A DNA stretch of 64,000 nt, taken from NCBI GenBank assembly GCA_016186825.1, contig JACPKW010000004.1:130237-194236 (forward strand). Direction: 5' to 3'. The DNA comes from Candidatus Giovannonibacteria bacterium. Lineage in GTDB: Bacteria; Patescibacteriota; Minisyncoccia; JACPKW01; UBA11713. The position numbers and the translations under genes are program-made. Shown piece by piece: positions 4,287-64,000 of the stretch (its first letter is position 1; every line of letters begins with the position of its first letter). The notes below the pieces were generated by a model. That model did not search any database and was not told the origin of the DNA. It saw nothing but the letters and a program-made list of their open reading frames with translations.

Positions 4287-5258
4287 ATGCCTAAAGTTTT
4301 TGTAACGCGAATAATACCGGATGCGGGCATTAATAAATTAACCAGGGCGGGATACGAAGTTCATCTTAACCCCGAAGACAGAGTGCTCCAAAAAGACGAG
4401 CTGATCGGTCTTCTCGAAAAAGAAAGATACGATGCGGTGCTCGCGCTCTTAACTGATAAACTTGATAAAGATATTTTTAAAGCCGCTGGTCCGCAGTGCA
4501 AAATTTTTTCAAATATGGCGGTAGGTTTTGATAATGTGGATTTAGACGCAGCGAAAGAAATGCAAATAATGGTTTCAAATACGCCGGGCGTTCTCACGGA
4601 TACGGTTGCGGAACATACTTTTGCGCTCTTGCTCGCAATCGCGCATAGAATTTCTGAAGCAGATAATTTTACACGCGCCGGCAAATATCATGGCTGGGAG
4701 CCGATGATGCTTTTAGGCTCTGACGTTTCTAAAAAGACTCTCGGCATAATCGGGCTTGGACGCATTGGCTCGCGCGTGGCGTATCACGCCCGAAAAGGAT
4801 TCGATATGAACGTAATTTATTATGATGTTAAAAGAAGCGAGGATTTTGAAAGAGAATTCGGCGCAACTTTTTCTTCAGATGTAGAAGGTGTTTTAAAAGC
4901 CGCCGATTTTGTATCAATTCATGTCCCGCTTATGGAGCAAACGAGACATTTGATAAATGCCGAACGTCTGAAACTTATGAAAAAAAGCGCTTACCTTATT
5001 AATACCTCAAGAGGGCCGATCATAGATGAGAAGGCCTTGGCAGGGGCGCTTAAATCTGGCATTATACGGGGCGCCGCTCTCGATGTTTTCGAGGCGGAAC
5101 CAAAAGTTGAACCAGAGCTTCTTAAATTAAACAATGTGATTTTAACGCCGCATATCGCATCTGCTACCGAGGAAACTCGCGATAAAATGGCGGAGCTTGC
5201 GGCGTTTAATATAATAGAGGCTCTCGAGGGCAGAACGCCTCCGAATCTCGTCAAATAA
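4287..5258 (+). CDS. D-isomer-specific 2-hydroxyacid dehydrogenase (glyoxylate/hydroxypyruvate reductase-like)
   Basis: NAD-binding GLGRIGSRVA, and INTSRGPIIDE...ALDVFEAEP. Confidence 0.85.
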   Translation: MPKVFVTRIIPDAGINKLTRAGYEVHLNPEDRVLQKDELIGLLEKERYDAVLALLTDKLDKDIFKAAGPQCKIFSNMAVGFDNVDLDAAKEMQIMVSNTPGVLTDTVAEHTFALLLAIAHRISEADNFTRAGKYHGWEPMMLLGSDVSKKTLGIIGLGRIGSRVAYHARKGFDMNVIYYDVKRSEDFEREFGATFSSDVEGVLKAADFVSIHVPLMEQTRHLINAERLKLMKKSAYLINTSRGPIIDEKALAGALKSGIIRGAALDVFEAEPKVEPELLKLNNVILTPHIASATEETRDKMAELAAFNIIEALEGRTPPNLVK

Positions 5259-27400: not shown

Positions 27401-30400
27401 GACTCCGCCCGGAACTTACAATATTGTTGTCTCCGGAACAGGTTTGGAAGGCACAAAATCAACTTCGTTTTCGCTTAATGTGTCAACCGCTCCCACAGAT
27501 CCTTCAACTGCGCCGCCTTTACCTGCGGGAAGCATTCAGGTGCCGCTTACGGTGAAAGAAGCATTGCCCGCAGGAATTTCCGGAATGTCTAGAACCTCTG
27601 AATTAGTTTCTGTCGGTATTCCGCTTCCTGAAAATAGCGGAGCAATCAGCACTTCGCAACTCGGACTTTCCGGAACAACTGCCGGACAATTTAGAACTCT
27701 CGCCAAATGGCCAAACGGGAACATTAAATGGGTGCTTGCGGATTTTCTGGCGAGCGTTTCGGCCGGAGGAACAACGAACGTCAGTTTAACGACTGGAGCA
27801 GGAAATTTTGGAGGAACGAATTTAGCCGCGGATAATGGCAATACGATAAATATAAATACCGGACCGGCACAATTTGTAATTAAAAAATCAAATTTCAATG
27901 TTTTCGACAGCGTGATAATCAATGGGCAAACTCTGGTAAACACAGGAAACAACGGTAAGTTGGTTATGCGCGATTCTTCAGATAACGAATATAATTCCTC
28001 AAATGATCCGTTCTCTGCGGCAGTCATTGAAGAAAATGGTCCAGTGAAAACAGTAATAAAAGCAGCAGGATCATTCAAAGATTTAAACGGAACGCGGCTT
28101 GCCGGATATACTTTGCGGATGACTTTTTACAAAGGCGATGCTTCCGTTAAAACCTTGTTTGCAATTACGAATTCGGACGTTGCAAGTCGAGCCCACACTA
28201 ATTTTAACAGCGTAGAAGCTGTTGTTCCGATAAACATTGGCGTTACTAAAATAGCTGAATACGCAACGAAAGTTGGAAGCACATCTGGAAATATCTCATC
28301 TGGAGAAACATCTTACCTATTTCAAGGGTACAGTCTTGATAAATTGGATGCCAGCGGACGAGATTGCTTTAACTGGAAACCACCTGTGCCCGGAACGTGC
28401 GATTCGAATTTTACATATCAATACGATCAGTCTAAGGCTGGTCTTGAAATAAAAATAGGTCAGAATACTGCCAATGTTTTGGGAAATCAAAGTGATTGGA
28501 CCGGAGGATGGGGCGAGTTGCGCGACTCATCCGGAAAAGGAGTGAGCATGGCTTACCGCTGGATGTCTTCCTACTGGCCGTCGGGTTTTGAAATGAAAGG
28601 CGATGGCAGTACTTCTATTGAAATATTTTCCAAACGGAACACAAAAAAGGGGCTGACTCTCGTTTTTGGGAAGCATGAAGCGAGAGAAATAATCTGGGAT
28701 TTCCATTCTGCGGCAGGAAATAATCAAAAGACCCTCTATAAATTGCAGTATCCGCTAATCGCCCAAGCGCCATTTTCACATTACCAAAATACTAAGGCCA
28801 TTTTTGGACAGGACGAATTTGTAACTCCCGCAGAGCAAACTAAATTTTTTACGGACATGGGAAAATCGACATGGGCGCCTAATCTTGGCAATCTTTCCAT
28901 GTATCGTATTTATCGGTCGATCGGTTGGGGGACTGGAGGCGGAGGCAATCAAACAGATTTTCCGTTAAATGACTTGCAAGACTTTTTAAGAACAGGAAAC
29001 CCGGGATTTTATCTTTTGGGCGAGCAAAGAACGTTGTTCAACAATACAGCATTTGTAAGAACTGACAACGGTGGAGTTCCATCTGGATTTGATCCAGAAC
29101 CAAGCTGGTCTTCTAGTATTAATGGCAGTTTCATTGACATGGAACACGCACATGTTTTATCCACTCCTTTTTATTACTTACTAACGGGAAATGAATGGAT
29201 AAAGGAAGGCTTTTTGGATTATGGAGATTATCTAGAGTACACCGAAACAGGATGGAAATATTATGCGATGCCAACAAATCCTTGGAATCGTTCTTGGGAT
29301 AGAAAATTACGCAACATGGCGCTTCTGTACGAATTTTCATGCCAGACTGGAAACTGCAACACAAAATATCGCGATTATCTTACAAACTGGATGGATTATT
29401 ATTTAAGTTCTCGCGATAACCCTTCCAACAAGTACGTACATGGGCGAAACATTGAGCGTGGATATCGGTATTGGGCCTATCCTTGGGCTGAAGATATCGG
29501 TTTGCGTCCAGTACAAGCTTTAACAGATGTCCAGATTCACTTTGAAGCGATGTATCAAGCACTTCGTGTGATGGAAGACACGGCTGTAACTTATTTGCGT
29601 CAAGAAGAATTGGAAGATTATTTGACTGGACTTTCGCAGTTTATATTCAACGAATATTATGACGAGATAAATGGCGGTGATGCTCTCGAGGAATTCGGAT
29701 TTATGTATGGATATCCATTAGACAGCGCCTCAACTATAAATGGCGGCAATTACTGGCTGACACTTGCTCCCTACGACGCATCTCGACCCGCTTTTTGGGG
29801 TTATCAAAAAACCGGAGATGCCTCGATGCTTACTAAAGCAAATAAGTTAATATGGGCAATTACAGAATATGCCACAGGCCGCAGTCCGTCGGAACTTCAG
29901 GATCAGGCTTTGATGTACACTCATTTCAACCCTCCCGCAACATGGAAACCGCTTTCTGTTTCAGCCGCAAACAACGGGGGCGGTTCATACACGCTTTCTT
30001 GGAATGTTCCCGCAGGCACAACGAAGTATCAAATTAAATATTCACCCAAACCGATTGTTGAATGGCTTGGATTCAATAAAGTTACGAGAACATATCAATA
30101 CGATCCTGCCCAATATACCGCTTTCTTTGCCGCGACAAATATTTCAAACGAGCCTGCGCCGCTTTCTAGCGGAACTCAAACATTCACACTCTCCGGCCTT
30201 TCCTGCGGATCTAATTGTTACTTTGCAGCGAAATATTATGACGGAGAAGTGGGATCTGTTACACCGCCTCCATCTGATACTCAAGCGCCTACAATCCCGA
30301 CAAATCTATCTGCTACCGCAATTTCTTCTTCCCAAATTAATCTTTCTTGGACCGCCTCCACCGATGCAGTTGGCGTAACTGGATACAAAATATATAGAAG

Positions 30401-33200
30401 CGGAGTTCAAATCGCAACTTCAAACACAACTTCATATTCTGACACTGGGCTTGCTCCGTCGACCGCATATTCATATACAGTTTCGGCATTCGATGCGGCT
30501 GGCAACAACTCTTCGCAATCAACAAGCGCAAGTGCAACAACGCAACCGGCGTCTGTTCCCGTAGATACCACCGCTCCTGTTATTTCAGGAATATCATCTT
30601 CTGGAATTACATCTTCTTCTGCAAATATTTTGTGGAACACAAACGAGATGTCTACGCACCAAGTCGAATACGGGCCAACTGCTTCCTATGGACAGTTAAC
30701 CACAGAAAATACGGCAATGATGACTTCTCACTCCGAAACAATTTCGAATCTTCAGTCTGGCTCAACATACAACTTCCGCGTAAAGTCCAAAGATGCCGCA
30801 GGAAATCTTGCAATCTCCTTAAATTCGAGCTTCAAGACTTTGAATGCTCCGGATAACATTCCACCAAATGCGATAAGCAATCTTTCGTCATCCGAGATCC
30901 AAACAAATTCTCTCAAGCTTTCTTGGACTTCGCCCGCAGATCCGCCTTCGAATTCAGCCGCGGACAAATATGATATCCGATACTCTATGAGCTTGCTTGG
31001 CGAATCAAATTGGCAGCAGGCTACCAGAGTTACCGGAGAGCCCGCGCCAGCCTCGCCCGGAGCCAATCAATCATATATTTTGGCTGGGCTCGCTCCACAG
31101 ACTACATATTATATTGCAATCAAATCTTCGGATGCGAAAAATAACGATTCGGCGCTCTCAAATGTATTACAAATTACAACTTTAGCTTCCGAACCTCCGC
31201 CCGCTATTCTTTCAGTGTCGCCGATTACTGCAAACATCCAGGACGTAAATTCTACTTTGCCGGGCGTCCAGTTCTACGAAGGAATGACGGTCAGATATTC
31301 TTCTTCTGCTTCGGGGCATGCGTCTTGGGAGTGGCTGTATTCGGTCAACAACGGAACACCAATTTCGTATCTTAAGGGCACAGGCAATGTGGAAGATGCC
31401 ATGTTCAAATATCCTTCAGGCAGTGCGGGAACTTCATACAAATGGATTTTCAGAGCTTCAAGTGGGACACAAATTAAAGAAGAGGCTCTCGATGTTTCGA
31501 TTATTTCTAGGCAGACTGGGACAAATCCAGCAGTTATTTCAAATATCGCTTTCGATATCGGACAAACTAGCGCAACTGTTACTTGGGAAACCGATATTCC
31601 TGCCTCCACTCAATTGGAATTCGGCGCACATAATCTTCTCGGCTCCCTGTCGCCTGAACTAAATTCGACCTCTTTGGTAACCGCGCACTCTGTGACTTCT
31701 TCAAATCTTATTCCTTGCGCCCGTTATTACTTCCGCGTCCGTTCGCGCGATTCTTCCAATAACATTTCCGCTGGCGCTCCATATTCATATTCTACCAAAG
31801 GCTGTCTTGGCGGGGCTGATGTTGCATCAAGCACAGAAAAACTTATCCGGCGCGCCGAAGGCGGAACGATCAAGCAGAAAGATAAGGGCTCTGGTTTGAC
31901 GATCACTGCTCCGATAAATTTTGCCTCCGATGATGCGGTATTCCAAATTCAAAAGCTTTCTAATAAAGTTTTCAGCACCGCGCAACTTCCTCAAAACAAA
32001 AAATTAATCGGCGATCACATATATGAATTGAAAGCTCTCTCGGATTCTTCTGTGGCAATTTCAGCTTTTGCTGATTCGCTCACGCTCACAGTCAAATATA
32101 ATTCTGCTGATCTGGGGAATATTAATCCTTCTACACTCCGGCTTTACCGCTGGGTATCTTCAAGTAACTCCTGGCAGGTTCTGTCGTGCACTGAAAGCAC
32201 TGCAGATGCTCAAGTGATCTGTTTGACAAATTCATTTTCATCATATGCTTTGCTCGGCGATGAAACGCAAACAACTGGAGGCGGGGGATCTTCGGGTGGC
32301 GGAACTTCAAGCGGGGGAGGAGGTATTATTATGCAAAGCGTTTCTGCTCCAGCCTCCTTCAAAGCTATCGGCGCCCCGAACCAGATTATTCTTTCCTGGT
32401 CTAATCCTAAAGATGCAAATTTTGTCCGCGCGCGCATTATTAAAAACCAAAACAGGGTTCCTCTTTCCGCAAATGACGGGGAAATAATATATGAAGGCGC
32501 AAAAGAAGAATTTATTGATACGAACGTAACTCTCAATGCCGTTTATAATTATGGCGTCTATGCGCTAGATCGGAATTTAAATGCCTCTGCGCTTTCGACA
32601 CTTATCGTTAAGGCTGGCGAAAAGAGCGAAGCAGACGCCCTTAAAGCTTTGAGCCAAATTGTTTCTGCCTCGAAAGTGACTGCACCAGTGACTTCCCCTG
32701 GGGCGTTATTAACTGGTCCTTTTGCTTTCGGTATTCGAAGCGAACAAGTAAAAATTCTTCAGGAATGGCTCGCGCGCGACAAATTGATCTATCCAGAGGC
32801 AAAAATCACTGGCTATTACGGCCCCGCAACATTTGCCGCAGTCAAACGCTTTCAGAAGAAATATGGAATTGCCCAAATTGGAATCGCAGGCCCCAAGACC
32901 AGAATGAAATTGAACGCACTTTATAATTCATCAGTAGTGTCCACACCTGAAGCGCCAAGTTCGAGCGAGACAATTATACTTCTCCGCGGTCCATTTTACC
33001 TCGGTGCCAGAGGTAATGAAGTTAAAGTGCTCCAGCAGCTGCTCGCGAAAGATAATGCCATTTATCCGGAAGGACGCGTAACTGGATATTACGGAGCACT
33101 TACATTTCAAGCTGTGAAAAGATTTCAGGCTAAATATGGAATTTTACAAACAGGAATCGCAGGGCCTAAAACCAGGGCTAAACTAAACGAGATATATTAA
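21459..33200 (+). CDS. giant surface protein (3913 aa): divergent N-terminal anchor module, 3 LamG domains, at least 5 fibronectin-III repeats, Kelch-like propeller region, unassigned ~800-aa central region, Gly-rich linker, two C-terminal peptidoglycan-binding (PG_binding_1-like) domains
   Basis: [24 protein letters not shown] anchor. LamG domains recognised by HWKFDEG...[10 protein letters not shown], three times. FN3 repeats [26 protein letters not shown]...AAYDAAGN. Tandem C-terminal LxGPFxxGxRxxxVKxLQxxLA...YGPATFxAVKRFQxKYGI repeats. Confidence 0.85.
   Translation: [3913 protein letters not shown]
22369..22640 (+). repeat. intragenic FN3-encoding DNA repeat, copy 1 of 4 (~270 bp, high identity)
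   Basis: Near-identical nucleotide blocks (ccggatactac...gcaacgacgcag) recur at 22663, 26235 and 30274. Confidence 0.7.
22663..22937 (+). repeat. intragenic FN3-encoding DNA repeat, copy 2
   Basis: Same block as copy 1, translated [44 protein letters not shown]. Confidence 0.7.
26235..26507 (+). repeat. intragenic FN3-encoding DNA repeat, copy 3
   Basis: Translated [57 protein letters not shown]. Confidence 0.7.
30274..30548 (+). repeat. intragenic FN3-encoding DNA repeat, copy 4
   Basis: Translated [60 protein letters not shown]. Confidence 0.7.
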
Positions 33201-45527: not shown

Positions 45528-48206
45528 ATGCCGCCGTTTAATAATTTTACACAAAGAGCTCAAGAAGCGATCAGGCGCGCACATGAGCTTGCAATAGAAA
45601 GAGGGCAAAACCAGATTGATCCGTTATATCTTCTGGCTGCTTTGATATTGCAAGACGAAGGAGTCGTAATTTCAATACTCGACAAACTCGAAATTGACCT
45701 CTCTCTTTTAACAGATTCTATTTTAGATACGCTTGACGGCGGGATGCGGACGAACGTTGTAATGCCCTCGCCGCAAATTTACTTGACACCCGAACTTGGG
45801 AGAACACTCGAGGAAGCGCACAAAGCCGCGATTCATTTGAAAGACGATTTTATCTCAACTGAACATTTGTTTCTAGGCCTTTTGGAAGTGCCTTCGCGCG
45901 CTAAGGAAATTTTAACGCGCTTCCGGATTGATAAAGAATCTGTAGTACGCGCGCTTGCGGATGTGCGCGGCAAAGATCGCGTGGCGGAAGTCGGGGGCGC
46001 GGAGACTGAAGTAAAGCTTCAAGTTTTGGAGCGCTACGCAAAAAATATGACGCGTCTTGCGCGTCAGGACAAGCTCGATCCAGTTGTTGGGCGGGAGGAT
46101 GAGATACGGCGCGTGATGCAGGTTTTGTCCAGGCGCACAAAAAATAATCCCGTTTTGATCGGAGAAGCAGGGGTTGGAAAAACTGCAATTGTGGAAGGTC
46201 TCGCGCGCAGGATCGCGGCGGGCGATGTTCCCGAAATTTTGAAAGACAAAGAACTGATCGCGCTCGACCTCGGCTCGCTGGTTGCGGGCACAAAATATCG
46301 CGGCGAATTTGAAGAGCGCTTGAAATCCGTAACGCGCGAAATTGAGCGCGCCTCCGGGAAAATAATTCTTTTTATTGATGAGCTTCATACTATTGTCGGC
46401 GCAGGCGCGGCGGAAGGGGCAATCGACGCTTCGAATATGCTCAAACCCGCCTTGGCGAAGGGTGAACTTCATGCGATTGGCGCAACAACTTTGAAAGAGT
46501 ATCAAAAATATATTGAGCGCGATCCGGCCTTGGCGCGCCGTTTCCAGCCGGTTTATGTTGAAGAGCCTTCGCTTGAAGACACGGTGAGCATCCTTCGCGG
46601 AATTAAGGATAAGTACGAACTGCATCATGGAGTCCGCATTTCAGACGAAGCTATTCAAGCGGCGGTGAGCCTTTCATCGCGCTATATTTCGGATAGATTT
46701 TTGCCCGATAAGGCGGTGGATCTATTGGATGAAGCGGCGTCCGCTTTGCGCCTTGAACTTGACAGCATGCCCGAGGAACTTGAAAACACAAACCGCCAGA
46801 TTTTGAAACTGGAAATAGAGAAAGAAGCGCTCAAAAAAGATTCGAGTCCCAAATCGAAACAGAAAACAAAAGAAATTCAAAAAGAAGTCGAAGATTTCAA
46901 AGAAAAAATAAGCGGGCTGGAACTTAAATGGAAAAATGAAAAAGAAACGATTACAAACATTCGCCAGGTTAAGCGCGATCTAGAAACTTTGAGACTGGAG
47001 GCAGAGGGATCAGAACGGAAAAGCGATCTTTCTAAGGTTGCTGAAATTCGCTATGGGCGCATTCCAGAACTCGAACGCCGTCTAAAATCTGAGGAGGGAA
47101 GGCTTCGAAAACTTCAACAGGAACGGATGATTTTGAAAGAGGAAATTACCCAAGAAGATATTGCAGGGGTGGTTTCGCGTTGGACCGGAATTCCTGTTTC
47201 TAAAATGCTCGAGGGCGAGGCAAAAAAACTTACGCGCATGGAAGAGGATCTAAAAAAGCGGGTCGTGGGCCAAGACGAGGCAATTTCAAAAGTTTCGCAT
47301 GCGGTCCGCCGTTCGCGGGCCGGAATCGGGGACGAGGATAAACCGATCGGCTCGTTTATATTTTTGGGCCCGACCGGGGTGGGGAAGACCGAGCTTGCGC
47401 GCGCACTTGCCGAATTTATGTTTAATGACGAAAAATCTTTGATTCGTGTGGACATGTCCGAATATATGGAACGGCATACGGTTTCAAAATTTATCGGTTC
47501 TCCTCCGGGTTATGTTGGCTATGAGGAAGGCGGTCAGCTTACGGAGTTAATCCGGCACCGCCCCTATGCCGTGCTCTTGTTCGACGAAATTGAAAAGGCG
47601 CATCCGGAAGTTTTTAATATCATGCTTCAGATTCTTGATAATGGGCGACTTACGGATGCAAAGGGGCGTCACGTAAATTTCAAAAACTCAATAATTATTA
47701 TGACTTCCAATGTCGGATCGGAATTTGTGCGTGAAATGGAAAAACTCGGCTTTCAGTCTGATGAAGAAACGAAAGAGAAGCAAGAGGAACAGCTTAAAGA
47801 CAAGATCCGGAAGGCGCTTGAATCGCGTTTTCGCCCTGAATTTTTAAATCGTCTCGACGAAGTTATAATTTTCAACTCGCTTTCGAAAGAAAATCTTCGG
47901 CACATTGTTGAAATCCAGCTTCTGAAAATGATGAAACGGCTCAGCGAAAAAGATATCACGATCAAAATTTCTCAAAACTCGAAAGACTTTCTGATTGCGG
48001 AAGGGTATGACACGAATTACGGAGCGCGGCCGCTTAAACGCTTGATTCAAAATAAAATTTTAAATCCGCTTGCGGAAAAGCTTGTTTCAGGCGAGATAAA
48101 ACCCGGAAGCTTAATATCTGTAGACGCGCGGGGTAAGGAAATCGAAATCGAAGTTTTGGCTTCCAAAAAGAAAAAAATTCTAAAAGAAGTTGCTCAGGTT
48201 TCTTAA
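45528..48206 (+). CDS. clpB: ATP-dependent chaperone ClpB
   Basis: Two AAA+ modules ([10 protein letters not shown] and [15 protein letters not shown]), a long middle coiled-coil domain and an N-terminal Clp_N repeat. Confidence 0.9.
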
Positions 48207-48280
48207 ATAATATAATATTCTCTAATAAAAGCTTATTAGGGCTTTTTTGTTTTGTGACGTATTTGCGCTTTAAATTTTAA

Positions 48281-48467
48281 TATGCGTGGGTGGCGGAGTG
48301 GTCAATCGCATCCCGCTGTAGGCGGGACGACCTGCCATTTAGCTTAAAGAGAGTTAAAATTTATTGTTTATATATGCGTGGGTGGCGGAGTGGTCAATCG
48401 CATCCCGCTGTAGGCGGGACGACCTGCCATTTAGCTTAAAGAGAGTTAAAATTTATTGTTTATATAT
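48281..48467 (+). repeat. two tandem ~91-bp direct repeats, each beginning with the first ~27 nt of tRNA-Tyr (5'-fragment pseudo-tRNA), then a CCCGC-UGUAG-GCGGG hairpin
   Basis: Units at 48281-48371 and 48372-48463 are identical. GCGTGGGTGGCGGAGTGGTCAATCGCA is identical to the 5' end of the intact tRNA-Tyr at 48468. Confidence 0.75.
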
Positions 48468-48555
48468 GCGTGGGTGGCGGAGTGGTCAATCGCACGTGGC
48501 TGTAAACCACGCGCCCTGACGGGCTACGTAGGTTCGAATCCTACCCCACGCACCA
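48468..48555 (+). tRNA. tRNA-Tyr (anticodon GUA), long variable arm, CCA encoded
   Basis: Acceptor GCGUGGG/CCCACGC, anticodon arm CGUGG-CUGUAAA-CCACG, variable stem GCCC/GGGC, T-arm GUAGG-UUCGAAU-CCUAC, discriminator A, then CCA. Confidence 0.8.
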
Positions 48556-48594
48556 ATATCAAACTTTCCGATTTTTGCCCGACCGATTCGGCCG
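48554..48594 (+). repeat. 41-bp direct repeat, left copy, abutting the tRNA-Tyr 3' end
   Basis: CAATATCAAACTTTCCGATTTTTGCCCGACCGATTCGGCCG is identical to 51336-51376. Confidence 0.75.
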
Positions 48595-48811
48595 AGCGAG
48601 GCGAGGCGAACCTTTCAAACTTGAGAATTCCTTTCTGAGGCAGTATTCTTGAATTAGTCCGAACCCCGGTAGTAAAGCAAAGCTTACTACGGGGCACGTC
48701 GCATTTCTCCGCCTGCGACGGTGAGGAAGTCCCCCCAGCGAATCCGCCAGCTGGCGGACGGAAAGGCGGCGGCTTGTCCTGAGCGAAGTCGAAGGGAGCC
48801 GCACCGCTCAA

Positions 48812-48934
48812 AACCGCCAAACCTGCCTGCCGGCAGGCAGGGAACCCGTTAAAAACATCGGCTCGAATCATATTTTAATTTTGGGGGAAGAAAATTTTTA
48901 ATCATATAGTCGAAAATTATTAAATAATAAAGAA
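48812..48934 (+). promoter_or_regulatory. recurrent GC-rich upstream element, copy 1: CCGCCAAA + 20-nt perfect palindrome CCTGCCTGCCGGCAGGCAGG (48822-48841) + conserved AT-rich leader ending ...AAAATTTTTAATC
   Basis: The same ~100-bp module precedes the ORFs at 48935, 49747 and 50465. Confidence 0.6.
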
Positions 48935-49633
48935 ATGAACATGGACAATCAAAAAGGTTTTACAAATATAGTTTTGATAGCAGTAATCGTAATACTTGTA
49001 GGTACAGTTGGATATTTTGCTTTGACGAATAAACAGGGACCAGCTACACAACAGACGATAACAACACCTCCAGCCGGAATCCCAACTCCAACGCCGCAAG
49101 CATCTACTCCAACGCCAGCAGACGAAACTGCAAATTGGAAAACGCATCGAAATGAAGAATTTGGTTTTGAGTTTCATTATCCAAAAGAGTTCCCATTCGG
49201 TGCTGGCCAGAAAGTACCGGACACGCAGGGAGCATATAATTATATATTCAATATTTCTGGTCCACGCGGTGTGGGCGAAAGTATCGCAGATTTTAACGTT
49301 ACTCCTCAGGAAAAATTATATCCATTCGGCTTCAGTTTTAAAGGAGAACAACCTATAAGGAGTCTGAGCCAGCTAAAAATCAATATTCAACGATATGTTG
49401 AAGCGAAGAACAGTGTTGAACAAGTAAGGGAATCTGTGCAAATTACCGATTTTACTACTAGGGAGAACCTAAGTGGACTCAAGGCGGTTTATTACGGAAA
49501 TAGTCCACAGCAGCCCTCGGCCGTAACTTATTATTTCTATAAAGACCCATATATTTACTGGTTTAGGTCTTTTGGCTTAGAAGCAGACGGAAATGTTTCT
49601 AAAATAGCTTCAACTTTCAAATTCATAAAATAG
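48935..49633 (+). CDS. small secreted/membrane-anchored protein: N-terminal TM helix, Pro/Thr-rich linker, globular domain. Paralog of the window-start gene
   Basis: TANWKTHRNEEFGFEFHYP and the STFKFIK C-terminus are shared with 1..627. Confidence 0.65.
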   Translation: MNMDNQKGFTNIVLIAVIVILVGTVGYFALTNKQGPATQQTITTPPAGIPTPTPQASTPTPADETANWKTHRNEEFGFEFHYPKEFPFGAGQKVPDTQGAYNYIFNISGPRGVGESIADFNVTPQEKLYPFGFSFKGEQPIRSLSQLKINIQRYVEAKNSVEQVRESVQITDFTTRENLSGLKAVYYGNSPQQPSAVTYYFYKDPYIYWFRSFGLEADGNVSKIASTFKFIK

Positions 49634-49646
49634 AATTTTAAGGAAT

Positions 49647-49746
49647 TTGCCGCCAAACCTGCCTGCCGGTAGGCAGGGAACCCGGAAAAATAATCGGCTT
49701 GAACCATGTTTTAACTGAAAGAAGAAAAGAAAAATTTTTAATCAAT
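49647..49746 (+). promoter_or_regulatory. recurrent upstream element, copy 2 (palindrome imperfect: CCTGCCTGCCGGTAGGCAGG)
   Basis: Aligns with copies 1 and 3 over ~100 bp. The ATG follows TTTTTAATCAAT directly. Confidence 0.6.
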
Positions 49747-50355
49747 ATGAATAAAGGATTTTTAAATATCGTAATTCTAATCGGCATTGTTATAGTTGTT
49801 GCTCTTGCGGGCGTTTTCTTTTTGAGGCAAAAAACTGAAACGCCCTCAACGACTTTGCAGCAATCAACATCCCCAAATGGAACGGTACAAACAACACCAA
49901 ACAGTCCCTCTGGGGCAATCTCTGACTTATGTCTTTCGGAAAAAGATAAAATCATAGATTTAGTAAATACCTTTGAGAACGCTCAAGTGAAAAGAGATGC
50001 ACGAGGCGTTTTGGCATTGTTCACCTCCGCCGAACTGCCCGGCGATTCTTCTACTTACGTTCACCTTTCCGGAAGCGACACGGCGGGTCCGCGCCTCTAC
50101 AGTTCCGGGCAAACTAATTTTAACCAACCCGCCTTTAAAATCTTGGAGGACCCGAGCAAAAATGCTTCCGGCAGTTGCACTACCAAGGTTCAGGAACAGC
50201 GAAGTTATTATCCTGAAGGTGTGGGCGGAGATTTTGGTCCAGCCCAACCTTACACTGTTTACTTTGTTACAGTAAAACAAAATAATAGTTGGAAGATTGA
50301 TAATTATTTGTCTGATAATAGCAGTACGCATAAGTATAGTGGTTGGGGTTATTAG
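49747..50355 (+). CDS. small secreted/membrane-anchored protein (TM + Ser/Thr/Pro linker + globular domain). Start moved to the ATG directly after the conserved leader
   Basis: MNKGFLNIVILIGIVIVVALAG. Same architecture as 48935..49633. The ORF-table start 49699 lies inside the conserved upstream element. Confidence 0.6.
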   Translation: MNKGFLNIVILIGIVIVVALAGVFFLRQKTETPSTTLQQSTSPNGTVQTTPNSPSGAISDLCLSEKDKIIDLVNTFENAQVKRDARGVLALFTSAELPGDSSTYVHLSGSDTAGPRLYSSGQTNFNQPAFKILEDPSKNASGSCTTKVQEQRSYYPEGVGGDFGPAQPYTVYFVTVKQNNSWKIDNYLSDNSSTHKYSGWGY

Positions 50356-50366
50356 TTTTTAAGAAT

Positions 50367-50464
50367 TTGCCGCCAAACCTGTCTGCCGGTAGGCAGGGAA
50401 CCCGGAGAAAAACATCGGCTCGAACCATATTTTGAATTTTGGGAAAAGAAAAATTTTTAATCCT
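50367..50464 (+). promoter_or_regulatory. recurrent upstream element, copy 3 (CCTGTCTGCCGGTAGGCAGG)
   Basis: Aligns with copies 1 and 2. The ATG at 50465 follows TTTTTAATCCT. Confidence 0.6.
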
Positions 50465-51124
50465 ATGAATACTGAACAAGAAAAAACTATACAAAAAGTC
50501 GCCGATGAAGTAAGGCAAAAACTCGAAGGTGAAGGGTCTGGACATGATTGGTGGCACATCGTACGAGTTTGGAATATGGCCAAACACATCGGCAAAAGTG
50601 AAAGTGCCGATATTTTTTTAGTAGAACTTGCCGCACTTCTCCACGATATAGCGGACTGGAAATTTCACGACGGAGACGATACTGTCGGTCCAAAAATAGC
50701 TCAGCAAATTCTTGAAAAATATTCTGTGTCCGCTGAAGTCATTAATCAAGTTTGCGATATTATCATGAGCATGTCTTTTAAGGGTGCGGGCGTAAAAACT
50801 GAAATGAAAACACTTGAGGGTAAAGTTGTTCAAGATTCCGACCGGCTTGACGCAATCGGAGCCATTGGTGTCGCCCGCACATTTGCTTACGGCGGATTTA
50901 AGAATCGGCCTATGTTTGATCCGAGCAAAAAGTCGTCTATGCAACAGTCGAAAGAGGAATATTTTAAGAGCGAAAGCTCAACCATAAATCATTTTTATGA
51001 AAAACTTTTGCTCCTGAAAGATAGGATGAACACTAAAACCGCAAAAGAACTTGCCGAAGGTCGTCATCGGTTTATGGAAGAATATCTCGATAGATTTTTC
51101 CAAGAATGGGATGGAAAAATATGA
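50465..51124 (+). CDS. HD-domain phosphohydrolase
   Basis: H...HD...D: WWHIVRVWNMAKHIG, ALLHDIADWKF, DSDRLDAIGAIGVARTF. Confidence 0.7.
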   Translation: MNTEQEKTIQKVADEVRQKLEGEGSGHDWWHIVRVWNMAKHIGKSESADIFLVELAALLHDIADWKFHDGDDTVGPKIAQQILEKYSVSAEVINQVCDIIMSMSFKGAGVKTEMKTLEGKVVQDSDRLDAIGAIGVARTFAYGGFKNRPMFDPSKKSSMQQSKEEYFKSESSTINHFYEKLLLLKDRMNTKTAKELAEGRHRFMEEYLDRFFQEWDGKI

Positions 51125-51159
51125 TTCTGATTTTTTGTATTTATAATTCATAATTAGAA

Positions 51160-51192
51160 TGCCGCCAAACCTGCCTGCCGGCAGGCAGGGAA
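51160..51192 (+). repeat. recurrent element, truncated copy 4 with perfect palindrome, followed by GC-rich sequence related (partly inverted) to 48700-48790
   Basis: GCCGCCAAACCTGCCTGCCGGCAGGCAGGG. Downstream GCCGCCTTTCCG is the reverse complement of CGGAAAGGCGGC at ~48770. Confidence 0.55.
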
Positions 51193-51335
51193 AAACTTGT
51201 CACCGCTTTTAGCGGGATCCCGCCTTCTAAAATGTAAATATGTGGCGGGAAAATTGTCATCGATGCGGCTCCCCGCCTGCATTGAGGCTTCGGCGGGCAG
51301 GCGCCGCCTTTCCGAATTTTCGCGGGGGGATTTTT

Positions 51336-51376
51336 CAATATCAAACTTTCCGATTTTTGCCCGACCGATTCGGCCG
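51336..51376 (+). repeat. 41-bp direct repeat, right copy
   Basis: Identical to 48554-48594. Confidence 0.75.
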
Positions 51377-51528
51377 CGCTTTGCACTGCGAGGCATTGAC
51401 TTTTCCAATGCGGCGCTAATGCGCAGCTATAAAATTCTTTTATTTGTGCCTTTTAAAATTTATATGGAGCTGGTTTAATAAATAGGGCATAGTTCATAAG
51501 TTGAAGAGCTAAGATAGGGAGGTGCTCT

Positions 51529-51780
51529 ATGTTATATTGCTCCAACTGCTTGGTGGTTTCCTTGACGGAATTGGGTTCGTTAGGAAACGGTTTTGGTACT
51601 TTCGCGAGATGCGAGGATTGTGTGCAAATGATGAATCTCCGTTCAGCGAAAGAAGTTGCCTGCGAGAGGTGCAAGCGGCCATCAATGCCGGTTTTCGAGA
51701 TCCTGGGCAAGGAGCGGCTGTATAAGGCACATGTATTTCATAATATCAATGACCTCTCTAAATTTCCGGAACGAGCGTAG
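51529..51780 (+). CDS. possible small Cys-rich zinc-ribbon protein
   Basis: CSNC...CEDC...CERC pairs. Weak; sits at the edge of the GC-rich repeat area. Confidence 0.35.
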   Translation: MLYCSNCLVVSLTELGSLGNGFGTFARCEDCVQMMNLRSAKEVACERCKRPSMPVFEILGKERLYKAHVFHNINDLSKFPERA

Positions 51781-51825
51781 CGAATGCTACGCTTTGTTTT
51801 ATAATGAGAGCATAGGCTGATTTTA

Positions 51826-52848
51826 ATGAGCAATTATCTTTTTAGAGAGCTTAACGAAAATGAGGATTTCGACCCGGCTATTTTGGATCCGAGCGTTTAT
51901 TTTACGCAGGCGAAATTTTATGGAGACTGGCAGAAGGATTTTGGAAGAGAAGCGAAGCGCTACGTCATATATGAAGGTGGAACACATGTTGGGTATTTTC
52001 AGTTAGTTAAGTATCCACTTTTGCTTGGGAAGTCTTATTTATATTCTCCATACGGACCCGTGCTTGCAAATTTTTCGAAAGGTCTTCTCGCGGAACTTAA
52101 AAGTAAAATAATGAAAATTGCAAAAAAAGAAAATGCGGTCTTTGTGAGATTGGATTTCTCACCGCCTCCAGATGATAAAACTTTAGTTGAGAGTTTTTTT
52201 AAAAAAGCTAAGAAAGTCACTTATCATGCTGCTCACTTCCAGCCGCGGACCGACTGGGTCTTGCCTCTTGATAAAAACGAGGAAGCATTGCTCGCTGGGA
52301 TGCATAAAGCGACCCGCTACTCTATCAGATTTGCGGACAAAAACGGCATCGCATCAGAGATAATAACTCACGATTTTGAGAAATATTTTGACACCTTTTA
52401 TAATTTGATGGTTGAGACTTCGATAAGAGACGGTTTTTCGCTTCATCCTAAAAAGTATTATGAAAGTATTTTTAAAAATATTTCAAAAATTCCGAATTCT
52501 TACTTGGCCGCCGCGAAATATCAGGAGGAAGTTCTCGTTATCAATTTAATTATTGTGTATAACAAAAGTGCAAACTATATTTTTAGCGGTTCTGCCAATA
52601 AATACCGAAATTTATCTCCTTCCTATTCGGCGCTCTGGGCTGCGATCCGCCATGCTAAAAAAATAGGCTGCGAAAATTTCAATTTAGGCGGAATTTCTTT
52701 GGGAGAAACGTACAAAGGCTGGGAAAATTTGTCCAAATTTAAACAAAGATTTGGAGGCCGTCAGATTAATCATTCTGATTTTTATGATGTTGTTAACATG
52801 CCTTTTTGGTATCAGCTCTATAATTTGCGAAGAGTGATGAAGGTATAA
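51826..52848 (+). CDS. FemAB-family peptidoglycan interpeptide-bridge aminoacyltransferase
   Basis: 340 aa with a duplicated GNAT-like fold. YLYSPYGP and FYNLMVETSIRDGF regions are typical of FemX/FemAB. Confidence 0.75.
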   Translation: MSNYLFRELNENEDFDPAILDPSVYFTQAKFYGDWQKDFGREAKRYVIYEGGTHVGYFQLVKYPLLLGKSYLYSPYGPVLANFSKGLLAELKSKIMKIAKKENAVFVRLDFSPPPDDKTLVESFFKKAKKVTYHAAHFQPRTDWVLPLDKNEEALLAGMHKATRYSIRFADKNGIASEIITHDFEKYFDTFYNLMVETSIRDGFSLHPKKYYESIFKNISKIPNSYLAAAKYQEEVLVINLIIVYNKSANYIFSGSANKYRNLSPSYSALWAAIRHAKKIGCENFNLGGISLGETYKGWENLSKFKQRFGGRQINHSDFYDVVNMPFWYQLYNLRRVMKV

Positions 52849-63945: not shown

Positions 63946-64000
63946 ATTTTTGTTTCCGCCAGCTGGCGGATTATTGAGCGCAAATCGACTCTTTCGCGCT

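What the first reader, a model, noticed from the sequence alone, without database searches (positions are those of the whole stretch)
48812..51192. Recurrent ~100-bp GC-rich upstream module with a 20-nt perfect palindrome driving three consecutive small genes
GCCGCCAAA-CCTGCCTGCCGGCAGGCAGG-GAACCCGG...ATCGGCT(C/T)GAACCAT(A/G)TTTT...AAAATTTTTAATC precedes the ATGs at 48935, 49747 and 50465. A fourth truncated copy sits at 51160. The palindrome is perfect in copies 1 and 4 and has one or two changes in copies 2 and 3. It could be any of:
- an operator for a dimeric regulator;
- a stable RNA hairpin in a shared 5'-UTR;
- part of a small mobile or recombination module.
ORFs called across these GC-rich stretches (48524-48871, 51141-51478) are probably artefacts. 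The TCGAAC/TTGAAC ... TATTTTAAT spacing would also fit a sigma-70-like promoter.
Basis: seen in the sequence. Interest (0 to 1): 0.55.

Follow-up and report, generated by a model that had tools for sequence, protein, structure and literature searches.

The report
Recombinase-gene relics between tRNA-linked cargo genes
The repeated "upstream module" is not an operator: it is the shrunken remains of a mobile element's serine-recombinase gene, with that gene's own upstream region and a 20-bp palindromic insertion, and it separates three cargo genes stacked beside a tRNA gene in a CPR (Patescibacteria) bacterium.

Summary
The palindrome CCTGCCTGCCGGCAGGCAGG occurs four times, only between 48822 and 51189, with none expected by chance, inside modules that are about 90% identical.

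The interpretation changes. Each module is a collinear patchwork of fragments of a large serine recombinase (LSR) gene. This LSR family is abundant in Candidate Phyla Radiation (CPR) genomes and sits next to tRNA genes. The fragments are:
- GAATTTGCCGCCAAA, codons E30-K34;
- the palindrome, a precise 20-nt insertion at GCCAAA^GAA;
- GAACCCGGA, codons E51-G53;
- AAAAACATCGGCTCGAACCATATTTTG, codons 446-454;
- the AT-rich region that precedes intact LSR genes.

Intact genes in L038, L039 and L040 carry the same internally deleted relic plus a cargo gene beside them. An orthologous HD-gene cassette (L060) lacks the palindrome at exactly this point.

The palindrome belongs to the 3' flank of the preceding gene, not to a promoter. 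In 12 copies from 11 loci in other CPR genomes it follows a gene, with no downstream AT-rich part.

The whole island (48556-51379) lies directly after tRNA-Tyr and has no recombinase of its own.

Best reading: a tandem stack of non-autonomous, decayed LSR-element units. Any promoter or terminator role for the parts is inferred. What inserts the palindrome is unknown.

The parts
48468..48555 (+). tRNA-Tyr (GTA). The island starts at its CCA end.
   Evidence: ARAGORN; Rfam tRNA, 61.7 bits.
48556..48639 (+). Probable copy of the recombinase 3'-terminal coding segment ('X', codons ~455-489 of intact LSRs). Its first 42 nt form the left copy of the 44-bp direct repeat (48554-48597).
   Evidence: It is collinear with X in L038, L039 and L040 in alignment A2. 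It matches L040 X at 17 of 18 positions (score 31; shuffles 13.6 +/- 2.2), but matches L038, L039 and L006 only weakly.
48640..48664 (-). 'TAIL' motif GTTCGGACTAATTCAAGAATACTGC, the usual distal end of units in other genomes. Here it is inverted and joined to the outer end of X.
   Evidence: It matches L005 and L009 at 25 of 25 positions. It occupies the same position as in L038-L040 (A2).
48665..48801 (.). Mosaic of GC-rich hairpins, including M5 (48669-48695, minus strand) and ATCCGCCAGCTGGCGGA (48742-48758).
   Evidence: In A2 this position holds a hairpin-rich segment that differs between loci.
48802..48821 (+). Recombinase relic CACCGCTCAAAACCGCCAAA, about codons 45-50 (..AQTAK).
   Evidence: It aligns with CCAAACTGCCAAA of the relics in L038, L039 and L040 and with the intact CDS.
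48822..48841 (.). Palindrome copy 1 (perfect), inserted at K50^E51.
   Evidence: It appears as a 20-nt insertion relative to L038, L039 and L040 in A2.
48842..48877 (+). Recombinase relic: GAACCCGTT (codons 51-53) fused to AAAAACATCGGCTCGAATCATATTTTA (codons ~446-454, K-x-IGSNHIL).
   Evidence: 48857-48876 matches the intact LSR CDS of L038, L039 and L006 at 19 of 20 positions. L038 relic plus P plus cargo aligns with window 48851-49020 at E = 1.4e-19.
48878..48934 (+). 'P': the AT-rich region homologous to the sequence just upstream of intact LSR start codons, plus a conserved extension (GTCGAAAATTATTAAATAATAA).
   Evidence: A 31-nt stretch is identical in L005 and L008. It aligns with P of L038, L039, L040 and L017.
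48935..49633 (+). Cargo gene 1 (232 aa, N-terminal transmembrane helix). Its N-terminal coding region is homologous to the cargo gene beside the intact LSR in L038.
   Evidence: 81.7% nt identity over 71 nt with L038 5560-5630. Only a weak Pfam hit.
49643..49657 (+). Recombinase relic GAATTTGCCGCCAAA = E30 F A A K34.
   Evidence: 15 of 15 identical to L038 6088-6102 in the intact CDS; alignment A3.
49658..49677 (.). Palindrome copy 2 (C13>T).
49678..49713 (+). Recombinase relic: GAACCCGGA (E51 P G53) fused to AAAATAATCGGCTTGAACCATGTTTTA (codons ~446-454).
   Evidence: It translates as EPG and K-I-IGLNHVL in the LSR frame; alignments A1 and A3.
49714..49746 (+). P region before gene 2.
   Evidence: GAAAAGAAAAATTTTTAATC is identical in copies 2 and 3 (D19).
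49747..50355 (+). Cargo gene 2 (202 aa, N-terminal transmembrane helix, no Pfam family).
50361..50377 (+). Recombinase relic AAGAATTTGCCGCCAAA (codons 29-34).
   Evidence: 50362-50377 is 16 of 16 identical to the intact CDS at L038 6087-6102. The full 17 nt match relic copies at L038 4947-4963 and L039 2274-2290.
50378..50397 (.). Palindrome copy 3 (C5>T, C13>T).
50398..50435 (+). Recombinase relic: GAACCCGGA (E51-G53) fused to GAAAAACATCGGCTCGAACCATATTTTGA (K-N-IGSNHIL, codons ~446-454).
   Evidence: 22 of 22 identical to the intact LSR CDS in L038 7342-7363, L039 1681-1702 and L006 5764-5785. The whole junction is identical in L015, L019 and L017.
50436..50464 (+). P region before gene 3.
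   Evidence: Relic plus P of L038, L039 and L040 align with window 50408-50462 at 78-80% identity, E about 1e-7.
50465..51124 (+). Cargo gene 3, an HD-domain phosphohydrolase (219 aa).
   Evidence: Pfam HD, 2.6e-13. An 83%-identical orthologue in L057-L060 is also preceded by P and followed by the recombinase relic.
51159..51201 (+). Terminal relic: ATGCCGCCAAA (codons ~31-34), palindrome copy 4 (51170-51189, perfect), then GAAAAACTTGTC (codons 35-38).
   Evidence: Alignments A3 and A4. The orthologous flank in L060 has the same sequence without the palindrome.
51197..51335 (+). GC-rich hairpin modules M1 (51197-51224), M3 (51238-51272) and M4 (51303-51328), shared with other CPR loci.
51336..51379 (+). 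Right copy of the 44-bp direct repeat (inner part of the X-like segment). This is the end of the island.
   Evidence: 98% identical to 48554-48597. Assemblies of the same strain break here, with contigs starting at 51350.

Best explanation
WHAT IT IS (shown). The inter-gene module is a relic of a large serine recombinase (LSR) gene from a family of small integrative elements that sit beside tRNA genes in CPR/Patescibacteria. Read 5' to 3', each module contains:
- LSR codons ~29-34 (..EFAAK);
- a 20-nt palindromic insertion at GCCAAA^GAA;
- codons 51-53 (EPG);
- a deletion of about 390 codons, which removes most of the gene; codons 1-28, including the catalytic Ser10, are also missing;
- codons ~446-454 (K-x-IGSNHIL);
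- the AT-rich segment P, which lies directly upstream of intact LSR start codons.

Each cargo gene sits between P and codon ~29, that is, where the first ~28 recombinase codons would be. So the palindrome belongs to the 3' flank of the preceding gene.

The island 48556-51379 is a tandem stack of three such recombinase-less units directly after tRNA-Tyr. It is capped on both sides by hairpin mosaics, and on the left by an inverted TAIL motif, which are further element-end sequences.

HOW IT AROSE AND WORKS (inferred).
- Units entered next to the tRNA by LSR-catalysed integration, supplied in trans or by since-decayed copies. L040 shows such accretion.
- The recombinase genes were then inactivated and shrunk: by the palindrome insertion, by replacement of the N-terminus, by the 54-445 deletion, and by loss of the long X/inverted-X repeat between neighbouring units. 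That last loss would create the IGSNHIL|P junction.
- The EFAAK-palindrome-EPG hybrids in copies 2 and 3 fit a deletion between two palindrome-bearing GCCAAA^GAA sites.
- The relic is now mainly a spacer. P, and in some copies a hybrid -35/-10 created at the IGSNHIL|P junction, probably supplies expression signals to the cargo gene. The palindrome may act as a 3' hairpin.
For: 1. L006 shows the palindrome inside an otherwise full-length LSR gene. The sequence reads GAATTTGCCGCCAAA-palindrome-GAAAAACTTGAAATTGTC and continues in frame for about 440 codons up to a convergent tRNA-Ser.

2. Intact homologues begin ..SELREFAAKEKLEIVASLCEAQTAKEPGR and end ..KQIGSNHILIDKSFSFSPKKPF. The family carries Pfam Resolvase, Recombinase and Zn_ribbon_recom domains. 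More than 6,651 proteins score E <= 1e-20, and many are 75-92% identical.

3. Window segments are identical to the intact coding sequence: 22 of 22 (50414-50435), 16 of 16 and 15 of 15. Alignment A3 shows the palindrome as a clean 20-nt insertion in the CDS.

4. L038, L039 and L040 come from three different contigs, and each carries an intact LSR. Beside it lies the relic CCAAACTGCCAAAGAACCTG|AAAACAAATCGGCTCGAACCATATTTTG (codons 47-53 joined to 446-454), then P, then a cargo gene, then EFAAKEKLEIV. Window 48540-49010 is collinear with these regions (A2; E = 1.4e-19).

5. L039 2170-3370 is a complete recombinase-less unit: tRNA-Ser, inverted X, P, LSR codons 1-53 fused to ~446-453, cargo genes, EFAAKEKLEIV, hairpins, TAIL.

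6. The orthologous HD cassette in L060 has P upstream and ACCGCCAAA|GAAAACTTG downstream, with no palindrome.

7. Link to tRNA genes. Units start within a few nucleotides of a tRNA 3' end in the window (Tyr), L003 (Tyr), L005 and L009 (Arg) and L039 (Ser), and lie a few hundred nucleotides downstream of one in L004 (Leu) and L008 (Arg). The called LSR ORFs run on into the reverse complement of a tRNA 3' end.

8. LSR coding sequences from different CPR lineages are 79-88% identical at the nucleotide level. This explains the exact 20-45-nt matches across lineages without any need for selection on the module.

9. In L038 the IGSNHIL|P junction gives TTGTAA-N18-CATAAT, pointing at the cargo gene.
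Against: - No recombinase gene is present in the window (tblastn), and none lies among the 15 ORFs scanned between 39.9 and 59.3 kb. Integration by an LSR is therefore inferred from other genomes, not seen here.
- No strain-level gain or loss of a unit was observed. Contigs of the same strain are identical and simply break at the repeats.
- The same deletion junction and relic-P-cargo layout recur in many genomes, and some stretches that differ from the intact gene are identical across lineages (31 nt of P in the window, L005 and L008). Simple independent decay does not predict this. It suggests the relic form itself is propagated, or is useful.
- The X-like assignment of 48556-48639 rests on position and one 17-of-18 match.
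- In the window the putative -10 is TTTAAT, which lacks the key A at position 2. In copies 2 and 3 it lies so close to the ATG that only a leaderless transcript could use it. No promoter passes the scan.
- The origin of the palindrome is unexplained.
Confidence: 0.72

Rival explanations
1. Active, integron-like cassette system. The relic, with the palindrome or the GCCAAA^GAA point as crossover site, would be a recombination site that an LSR encoded elsewhere uses in trans to insert, excise and shuffle single-gene cassettes next to tRNA genes.
For: - Three unrelated genes lie in one orientation, each bounded by the same ~110-nt module.
- The same boundaries surround unrelated cargo in many genomes: signal peptidase I in L008, the HD gene in the window and L060, and membrane proteins in L003, L004, L009 and L015.
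- L005 has two identical 920-bp cassettes in tandem.
- The palindrome occupies two paralogous sites, and hybrid flanks occur only where the palindrome is present.
- The palindrome plus its flanks has the rough dyad layout of a serine-integrase att site: perfect 10-bp inner arms and AATTT motifs about 20-25 bp out on each side (read from the sequence).
- The relic form is conserved across lineages.
Against: - No cassette-level polymorphism or circular junction was seen.
- The palindrome is dispensable. PAL-less units have the same architecture (L038, L039, L040, L060).
- The sequence around palindrome copy 1 is collinear with palindrome-free loci, so no palindrome-mediated rearrangement is needed.
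- The centre of the palindrome is the symmetric dinucleotide CG. By established knowledge of serine integrases, this would abolish polarity.
- Intact elements abut tRNA ends through the outer end of X, not through this site.
- The loci were fished with the palindrome itself, so the counts are biased.
Confidence: 0.13
2. The palindrome has been taken over as an RNA 3'-end hairpin (terminator, insulator or mRNA stabiliser) for the gene upstream of it, and that role explains its retention.
For: - It lies 5-40 nt after stop codons, or after a terminator and a second hairpin, in the window and in 11 other loci.
- It folds as an 8-bp G+C stem in every MFE structure.
- Both substitutions seen (C13>T, C5>T) keep G.U pairing on the coding strand.
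- Neighbouring modules are also hairpins whose stems are kept while their loops differ.
Against: - No U-tract follows it, and it is not called as a terminator.
- Only two kinds of substitution exist. The search patterns allowed only those positions to vary, so the G.U observation has no statistical weight.
- Orthologous units do without it.
- Whole modules fold no better than shuffles.
Confidence: 0.1
3. One reading: an operator for a dimeric regulator, with a sigma-70 promoter, that co-regulates the three genes.
For: - It is a perfect 20-bp palindrome that recurs 90-115 nt upstream of three start codons.
- The AT-rich P part is the native upstream region of the recombinase gene. In L038 it forms a promoter-like site with the relic junction.
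Against: - Elsewhere the palindrome is separate from P and lies 3' of genes.
- P occurs without it.
- It is an insertion inside coding-derived sequence.
- The proposed -35 hexamer consists of recombinase codons. No promoter is called in the modules.
- The fourth copy precedes no gene.
Confidence: 0.03
4. A dispersed repeat family of the REP/BIME or MITE type, unrelated to any recombinase.
For: Mosaic combinations of short GC-rich hairpin modules occur in either orientation in intergenic DNA.
Against: - All modules in the 64 kb lie in one island after one tRNA gene.
- The core segments are recombinase coding sequence.
- The island has no terminal inverted repeats of its own.
- There are no hits in viral contigs.
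Confidence: 0.02

Closest known systems
Large-serine-recombinase integrative elements and prophages (integrases of the phiC31, Bxb1 and TP901-1 type; TnpX/TndX transposons), and tandem accretion of islands at tRNA genes
   Same: The enzyme family is the same: Resolvase, Recombinase and Zn_ribbon_recom domains. The elements are integrated next to tRNA genes. Successive elements are stacked at one tRNA in L040. Decayed and truncated recombinase genes are left behind.
   Different: - The basic unit here is tiny, about 1-1.7 kb: one recombinase gene or one cargo gene.
- In the intact form an inverted copy of about 105 nt of the recombinase's own 3' coding end lies upstream of it.
- One particular internally deleted relic plus P recurs as a fixed spacer in front of unrelated cargo genes in many lineages.
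- Several different tRNA species are used.
- The att sites were not defined experimentally or computationally here.
Integron cassette arrays, including CALINs (arrays without an integrase)
   Same: It is a same-orientation array of short, unrelated, mostly unannotated genes separated by a conserved ~100-nt repeat. No recombinase lies nearby. Some cargo has its own promoter. A toxin-antitoxin-like pair lies next to the array in L008.
   Different: There are no R''/R' core sites on either strand, no long imperfect attC hairpin, and no tyrosine integrase. The repeat derives from a serine recombinase gene and is nearly identical in sequence between distant hosts. The array is anchored on a tRNA gene.
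Non-autonomous deletion derivatives of mobile elements (MITE-like or mini-elements)
   Same: The enzyme gene has an internal deletion while flanking and end sequences are kept. The copies coexist with intact relatives in the same group of organisms.
   Different: These units carry cargo genes. No mobilisation in trans has been shown. The window's internal units lack the X end sequences found next to tRNA genes in intact elements.
Short GC-rich palindromic insertions in AT-rich genomes (yeast mitochondrial GC clusters, Rickettsia palindromic elements); comparison from memory only
   Same: The palindrome and other GC-rich hairpins appear as precise, optional insertions at defined points, including inside coding-derived sequence, in a 42% G+C genome.
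   Different: At 20 nt it is much shorter than RPEs. It has no obvious target duplication and is so far seen only inside LSR-derived sequence. No mechanism is known. This resemblance was not tested.

Membership tests
Relic (pseudogene fragment) of a large serine recombinase gene | Nucleotide homology to intact family members, with segments in gene order | tested here: met
   Exact matches of 22 of 22, 16 of 16 and 15 of 15 to the CDS of L038, L039 and L006. The segments run in the order 5' fragment, then 3' fragment, then upstream region of the next unit.
Relic (pseudogene fragment) of a large serine recombinase gene | An intermediate state links the relic to the intact gene | tested here: met
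   L006 has the palindrome inside an otherwise full-length gene. L039 has codons 1-53 fused to ~446-453. L038, L039 and L040 have codons 47-53 fused to 446-454 next to an intact gene.
Functional large serine recombinase gene | Open reading frame with the catalytic N-terminal domain (Ser10 region), recombinase domain and zinc ribbon | tested here: not met
   Only about 20 codons survive per module. tblastn of the LSR against the window gives nothing beyond these fragments.
tRNA-linked integrative element | Abuts the 3' end of a tRNA gene | tested here: met
   The island starts at the CCA end of tRNA-Tyr. Units start within a few nucleotides of a tRNA 3' end in L003, L005, L009 and L039, and lie a few hundred nucleotides downstream of one in L004 and L008.
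tRNA-linked integrative element | Direct repeats (att core or partial tRNA copy) at both ends | tested here: inconclusive
   A 44-bp direct repeat brackets the island, but it overlaps the tRNA by only 2 nt. The TAIL motif ends in ..CACCGCCA in L038-L040, which looks like a tRNA 3' end, but it does not fold as a tRNA part. The att sites were not defined.
Integron / attC array | attC sites with R'' (RYYYAAC) and R' (GTTRRRY) cores | tested here: not met
   Neither motif occurs on either strand of any of the four modules. No module-spanning hairpin appears in the MFE folds of the modules, on either strand where both were folded.
Integron / attC array | IntI tyrosine integrase with attI next to the array (absent in CALINs) | tested here: not met
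   No recombinase domain was found in the 15 ORFs scanned from 39.9 to 59.3 kb. The rest of the window was not scanned with Pfam.
Integron / attC array | Same-orientation array of short cassettes separated by a conserved repeat | tested here: met
   Three genes of 202-232 aa lie on the + strand, with spacings of 836, 720 and 792 nt between palindromes.
Operator plus sigma-70 promoter module | A palindrome at a fixed position relative to a -35/-10 pair, always upstream of regulated genes | tested here: not met
   No promoter is called in the modules. The palindrome and the AT-rich part occur independently elsewhere, and the palindrome usually lies 3' of genes.
Intrinsic terminator | A G+C hairpin followed by a U-tract on the transcribed strand | tested here: not met
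   The palindrome is followed by GAACCC or GAAAAAC and is not among the terminator-like sites.
Known structured RNA family (Rfam 15) | Covariance-model match | tested here: not met
   In 47500-52500 at E <= 1, only tRNA-Tyr matched, plus a chance antisense hit on that same tRNA.
REP/BIME-type dispersed extragenic palindromes | Many copies dispersed between genes across the genome, with an associated RAYT transposase | tested here: not met
   All copies in the 64 kb lie in one island. The presence of a RAYT and a whole-genome count are not testable from this window.

The most novel reading that the evidence does not exclude
CPR bacteria may possess an integron-like gene-capture system built on large serine recombinases. 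In it, single-gene cassettes would be inserted next to tRNA genes. The conserved 'relic' (the recombinase's own 5' and 3' coding fragments plus P, with GC-rich palindromes inserted at GCCAAA^GAA) would be the functional cassette boundary and recombination site, used in trans, rather than decay debris. A covarying hairpin inside the intact recombinase CDS (codons 41-46) lies between the two GCCAAAGAA repeats, exactly where unit ends are joined. On this reading it would be part of that machinery.
Probability: 0.13. Interest if true: 0.85.

Novelty: new variant of a known kind. Interest (0 to 1): 0.5.

Why it matters
- **Annotation.** What looks like a shared regulatory module is a mobile-element scar. 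The ORFs called across it are artefacts, and assemblies of such genomes break at it.
- **A widespread element family.** The work exposes a very abundant, closely related family of small serine-recombinase elements in CPR genomes. They lie beside tRNA genes and leave arrays of accessory genes, mostly small membrane or secreted proteins, in otherwise minimal genomes. This is a plausible route of gene gain and exchange among these episymbionts.
- **Two leads for testing.** First, GC-rich palindromes are inserted precisely at defined points of recombinase-derived sequence. Second, a covarying hairpin lies inside the recombinase coding region.
- **Possible tools.** Serine integrases are genome-engineering tools, so a compact family that sits beside tRNA genes and whose ends can be recognised may have practical interest.

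Tried and rejected
- **Rfam** on 47.5-52.5 kb at E <= 1 found only the tRNA.
- **Promoter and terminator scan** found nothing in the modules.
- **RNA folding** of the modules on the + strand, and of modules 2 and 3 on the - strand, gave no excess stability.
- **attC cores** are absent.
- **Viral contigs** gave no hits to the palindrome, P or TAIL, so a phage origin is not supported.
- **Literature searches** on CPR plus integron, repeat elements or serine recombinase found no description of this. One paper gave context only: inoviruses in CPR hosts, with serine recombinases among the inovirus integration genes it catalogues (PMC6813254).
- **Searching the protein database with the spurious ORF** gave only 4 weak hits, although two of them yielded further arrays.
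- **The junction-specific metagenome scan** returned 14 loci. Only 3 are real (L015 = L019, and L017); the other 11 are chance matches in GC-rich DNA.
- **Exact look-ups of window proteins** for strain variants returned only identical, repeat-broken contigs.
- **A truncated LSR cluster (P0072)** proved to be interrupted by an IS110-family insertion, not by the palindrome.
- **The variable segment in L057-L060** has no relic modules at its borders.
- **An inversion at the palindrome**, an early idea to explain the inverted mosaic left of copy 1, was dropped. That arrangement is collinear with palindrome-free loci.
- **TAIL as a decayed tRNA 3' half** was considered. It is suggestive (TGGCGG...TCGAAC) but it does not fold as a tRNA part.

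Full report
**1. The observation**

The 20-nt palindrome CCTGCCTGCCGGCAGGCAGG occurs at 48822, 49658 (1 change), 50378 (2 changes) and 51170, and nowhere else in the window. No shuffle gave any match. Copies 1-3 sit in modules of about 110 nt that fill the space between a stop codon and the next ATG. These modules are 88-92% identical.

The three genes are 48935-49633 and 49747-50355, both with N-terminal transmembrane helices, and 50465-51124, an HD-domain protein. The region starts immediately after tRNA-Tyr (48468-48555). It is bracketed by a 44-bp direct repeat (48554-48597 and 51336-51379). Every sub-module I could define is confined to 48556-51380.

- Rfam finds only the tRNA.
- The promoter/terminator scan flags nothing in the modules.
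- The modules fold no better than shuffles.

**2. The same pieces in other genomes**

The 30-nt core, allowing the observed variants, occurs exactly in 11 loci from 10 CPR MAGs. These are labelled Curtissbacteria, Saccharibacteria, Uhrbacteria, Liptonbacteria, Minisyncoccia and others. In all of them it has the "copy 4" form. It lies just 3' of a gene and reads ..GAATTTGCCGCCAAA-palindrome-GAAAAACTTG... A varying mosaic of GC-rich hairpin modules follows, often ending in GTTCGGACTAATTCAAGAATACTGC, which I call TAIL.

The AT-rich gene-proximal part of the window module (..CATATTTTAATTTTGGGGGAAGAAAATTTTT..) is found with 100% identity about 800 nt upstream of the palindrome in L005 and L008, and 27 nt of it in L002. 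That is on the other side of a gene. So the window "module" is the 3' flank of one unit abutting the 5' flank of the next.

Units begin within a few nucleotides of a tRNA 3' end in L003 (Tyr; syntenic with the window), L005 (Arg) and L009 (Arg). They lie a few hundred nucleotides downstream of one in L004 (Leu) and L008 (Arg).

The junction form seen in the window (palindrome-GAACCCGGAGAAAAACATCGGCTCGAACCATATTTTG) recurs identically in three metagenome contigs, L015 = L019 and L017. The other 11 scan hits are chance.

The palindrome itself is optional. L005 has GAATTTGCCACCAAA|GAAAAACTTG and AAAACCGCAAAA|GAACCCG without it.

No viral contig carries any of the pieces. I found no paper describing them.

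**3. What the pieces are**

In L006 the palindrome and its right flank run in frame into a large serine recombinase (LSR) gene. That gene lacks only its first ~29 codons and ends against a convergent tRNA-Ser.

Intact homologues are very numerous: more than 6,651 proteins at E <= 1e-20, many 75-92% identical, with Resolvase, Recombinase and Zn_ribbon_recom domains. They read MKYIIYARKSTESEERQVRSIESQ.SELREFAAKEKLEIVASLCEAQTAKEPGR...TTFLKQIGSNHILIDKSFSFSPKKPFQIL....

The window module therefore decodes as follows:
- GAA TTT GCC GCC AAA = E30-K34.
- GAA AAA CTT GAA ATT GT = E35-V40.
- ..CAAAACCGCCAAA|GAACCCGG is about Q47-G53.
- ATC GGC TCG AAC CAT ATT TTG = I448-L454.

Window segments are 22 of 22, 16 of 16 and 15 of 15 identical to the intact CDS of L038, L039 and L006. 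Alignment A3 shows the palindrome as a clean 20-nt insertion in GCCGCCAAA^GAAAAAC.

Three loci with intact genes were examined: L038, L039 and L040, the last seen in 24 contigs of one organism. They all show the same neighbourhood:
- Upstream of the LSR start lies the AT-rich segment P (GAAGGGCAAAAGAAATTTTTTTATC..).
- P is preceded by an inverted copy of about 105 nt of the gene's own 3' coding end, which I call X.
- Divergently from that lies a relic in which codons 47-53 are fused to codons 446-454, followed by P, a cargo gene and then EFAAKEKLEIV.

Window 48540-49010 is collinear with that relic arm. The order is X-like segment, inverted TAIL, hairpins, QTAK[palindrome]EPG, K.IGSNHIL, P and gene 1. 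The N-terminal coding region of gene 1 is 82% identical to that of the L038 cargo gene (A2; E = 1.4e-19).

L039 also holds a complete recombinase-less unit: tRNA-Ser, inverted X, P, codons 1-53 fused to ~446-453, P, cargo genes, EFAAKEKLEIV, hairpins, TAIL.

**4. An orthologous cassette with and without the palindrome**

The HD gene has an 83%-identical orthologue (P0131) in L057-L060. There it is preceded by inverted X plus P. It is followed by the same 3' untranslated stretch and ACCGCCAAA|GAAAACTTG, with no palindrome (A4). This is a filled/empty pair for the palindrome at one orthologous site.

Upstream in L060, two different GC-rich hairpins occupy the same GCCGCCAA^AGAAAAAC point.

Across the loci in hand:

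| Flanks of the palindrome | Copies | Where |
|---|---|---|
| EFAAK / EKL | 11 | window copy 4 and 10 copies in other loci |
| QTAK / EPG | 2 | window copy 1, L017 |
| EFAAK / EPG (hybrid) | 2 | window copies 2 and 3 only |

No hybrid lacks the palindrome. The hybrids fit a deletion between two palindrome-bearing sites. These counts are biased, because the loci were fished with the palindrome.

**5. Interpretation**

Shown: the module is a relic of an LSR gene plus that gene's native upstream region. The palindrome is a secondary insertion into recombinase-derived sequence. Cargo genes sit between P and codon ~29. The island is tRNA-linked and has no recombinase of its own.

Exact matches across CPR lineages need no special selection, because the LSR genes themselves are 79-88% identical at the nucleotide level between these lineages. 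That points to recent horizontal spread.

Inferred:
- Units accumulate next to a tRNA by LSR integration. L040 shows one LSR unit displaced by a second element carrying a methyltransferase, a Rep protein and another LSR at tRNA-Ser.
- The recombinase genes are then inactivated and shrunk.
- The IGSNHIL|P junction is what would remain if the long inverted repeat X...inverted-X between two neighbouring units were lost.
- P probably carries expression signals. In L038 the junction forms TTGTAA-N18-CATAAT facing the cargo gene. The window versions are weaker (TTTAAT, very close to the ATG), and none passes the scan.
- A 3'-hairpin role for the palindrome is possible. It rests only on position and on two G.U-compatible substitutions, which the search design could not have contradicted.

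**6. What simple decay does not explain**

- One particular relic layout, and some non-genic stretches of it, are shared by distant genomes. This suggests the relic form is itself propagated or useful.
- GC-rich palindromes are inserted at precise points: GCCAAA^GAA, and GGCT^GAACC in L002, L005, L008 and L015.
- Intact LSR genes contain a perfect hairpin at codons 41-46. It covaries between loci even though this changes the protein: GCCTCGC/GCGAGGC, GCCTCAC/GTGAGGC and GCTTCC/GGAAGC. Relic units are joined to their end sequences exactly at its two sides.

These points keep an active, integron-like reading alive at low probability. I saw no cassette-level polymorphism. Assemblies of the window strain are identical and merely break at the repeats.

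**7. Verdict**

The operator, promoter and 5'-UTR readings are not supported.

It is a new variant of a known kind: decayed or non-autonomous serine-recombinase integrative units stacked at a tRNA gene. It is of moderate interest, mainly for the element family it exposes and for the unexplained palindrome insertions.

Noticed in passing
window 48275-48458: There are two 92-bp tandem repeats. Each carries the tRNA-Tyr upstream region, the first 27 nt of tRNA-Tyr and a different anticodon arm (TCCCG-CTGTAGG-CGGGA, still with a GTA anticodon). The real tRNA-Tyr forms the third copy. They look like displaced 5' halves from past recombination at the tRNA gene.
   Followed up: partly
L038 6121-6137; L039 ~460-476; L040 ~5121-5137; L006 ~4543-4559: A perfect hairpin lies inside the intact recombinase CDS (codons 41-46). 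It covaries between loci even though this alters the protein (SLCE versus SFQE): GCCTCGC-TGT-GCGAGGC, GCCTCAC-TTT-GTGAGGC and GCTTCC-TTTCA-GGAAGC. It lies between two GCCAAAGAA direct repeats.
   Followed up: partly
L038 5853-5955 vs 7363-7465; also L039 and L040: About 105 nt of the recombinase's 3' coding end is repeated in inverted orientation just upstream of its own promoter-proximal region. The gene is thus framed by long inverted repeats whose outer ends abut ..CCGCCA / TGGCGG.. tRNA-like ends.
   Followed up: partly
L060 1-80; L002, L005, L008, L015 (between ATCGGCT and GGAACCAT): Other GC-rich hairpins occupy the same insertion point as the palindrome (GCCGCCAA^AGAAAAAC), and a second point inside codons G449-N451. 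The inserts differ in sequence and length between loci.
   Followed up: partly
L038 4339-4425 (-); L039 1984-2073 (+): ARAGORN calls a tRNA-Ser with the unusual anticodon ACU beside LSR units in two unrelated contigs.
   Followed up: no
L040 5001-11296: One LSR unit is followed by a methyltransferase, a Rep protein (PF23343, REP_ORF2-G2P) and a second LSR that abuts tRNA-Ser(gga). This is tandem accretion and may be an inovirus-like element.
   Followed up: partly
L050 1317-4329: A related LSR gene is split between ..WHP and DRLARN.. by an IS110-family transposase gene on the opposite strand.
   Followed up: partly
L005 4900-6980 (minus strand): Two identical 920-bp cassettes lie in tandem, each with a GC-rich 139-aa ORF. 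In L002, L003, L004 and L005 the cargo ORFs are GC-rich and have their own consensus promoter (CTTGACT-N15-TATGCTA). Those in L002, L003 and L005 also have a terminator.
   Followed up: no
window 48742-48758 and 63954-63971; L003 3220-3236: The small hairpin ATCCGCCAGCTGGCGGA, which contains a PvuII site, recurs outside the island. In L003 it lies just upstream of tRNA-Thr.
   Followed up: no
L057/L059 2499-3480 vs L058/L060 2350-3734: Between otherwise 98-99% identical contigs, a 982-nt segment is replaced by a 1385-nt segment that includes an F420-ligase-like gene. No recombinase-relic modules lie at the borders.
   Followed up: partly
L003 4929-5750 (minus strand): An ORF that looks like a LAGLIDADG homing endonuclease (judged by eye, not scanned) lies immediately upstream of tRNA-Tyr and overlaps its start.
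   Followed up: no
window 21459-33200: A single 3,913-aa ORF. It was not examined.
   Followed up: no
window 48873, 50433, 51350 (contig ends of L032-L037): Public short-read assemblies of the same strain break inside the repeated modules. Many of the closest homologues of the HD gene sit on ~1-kb contigs, as expected if such cassettes are commonly flanked by repeats.
   Followed up: yes
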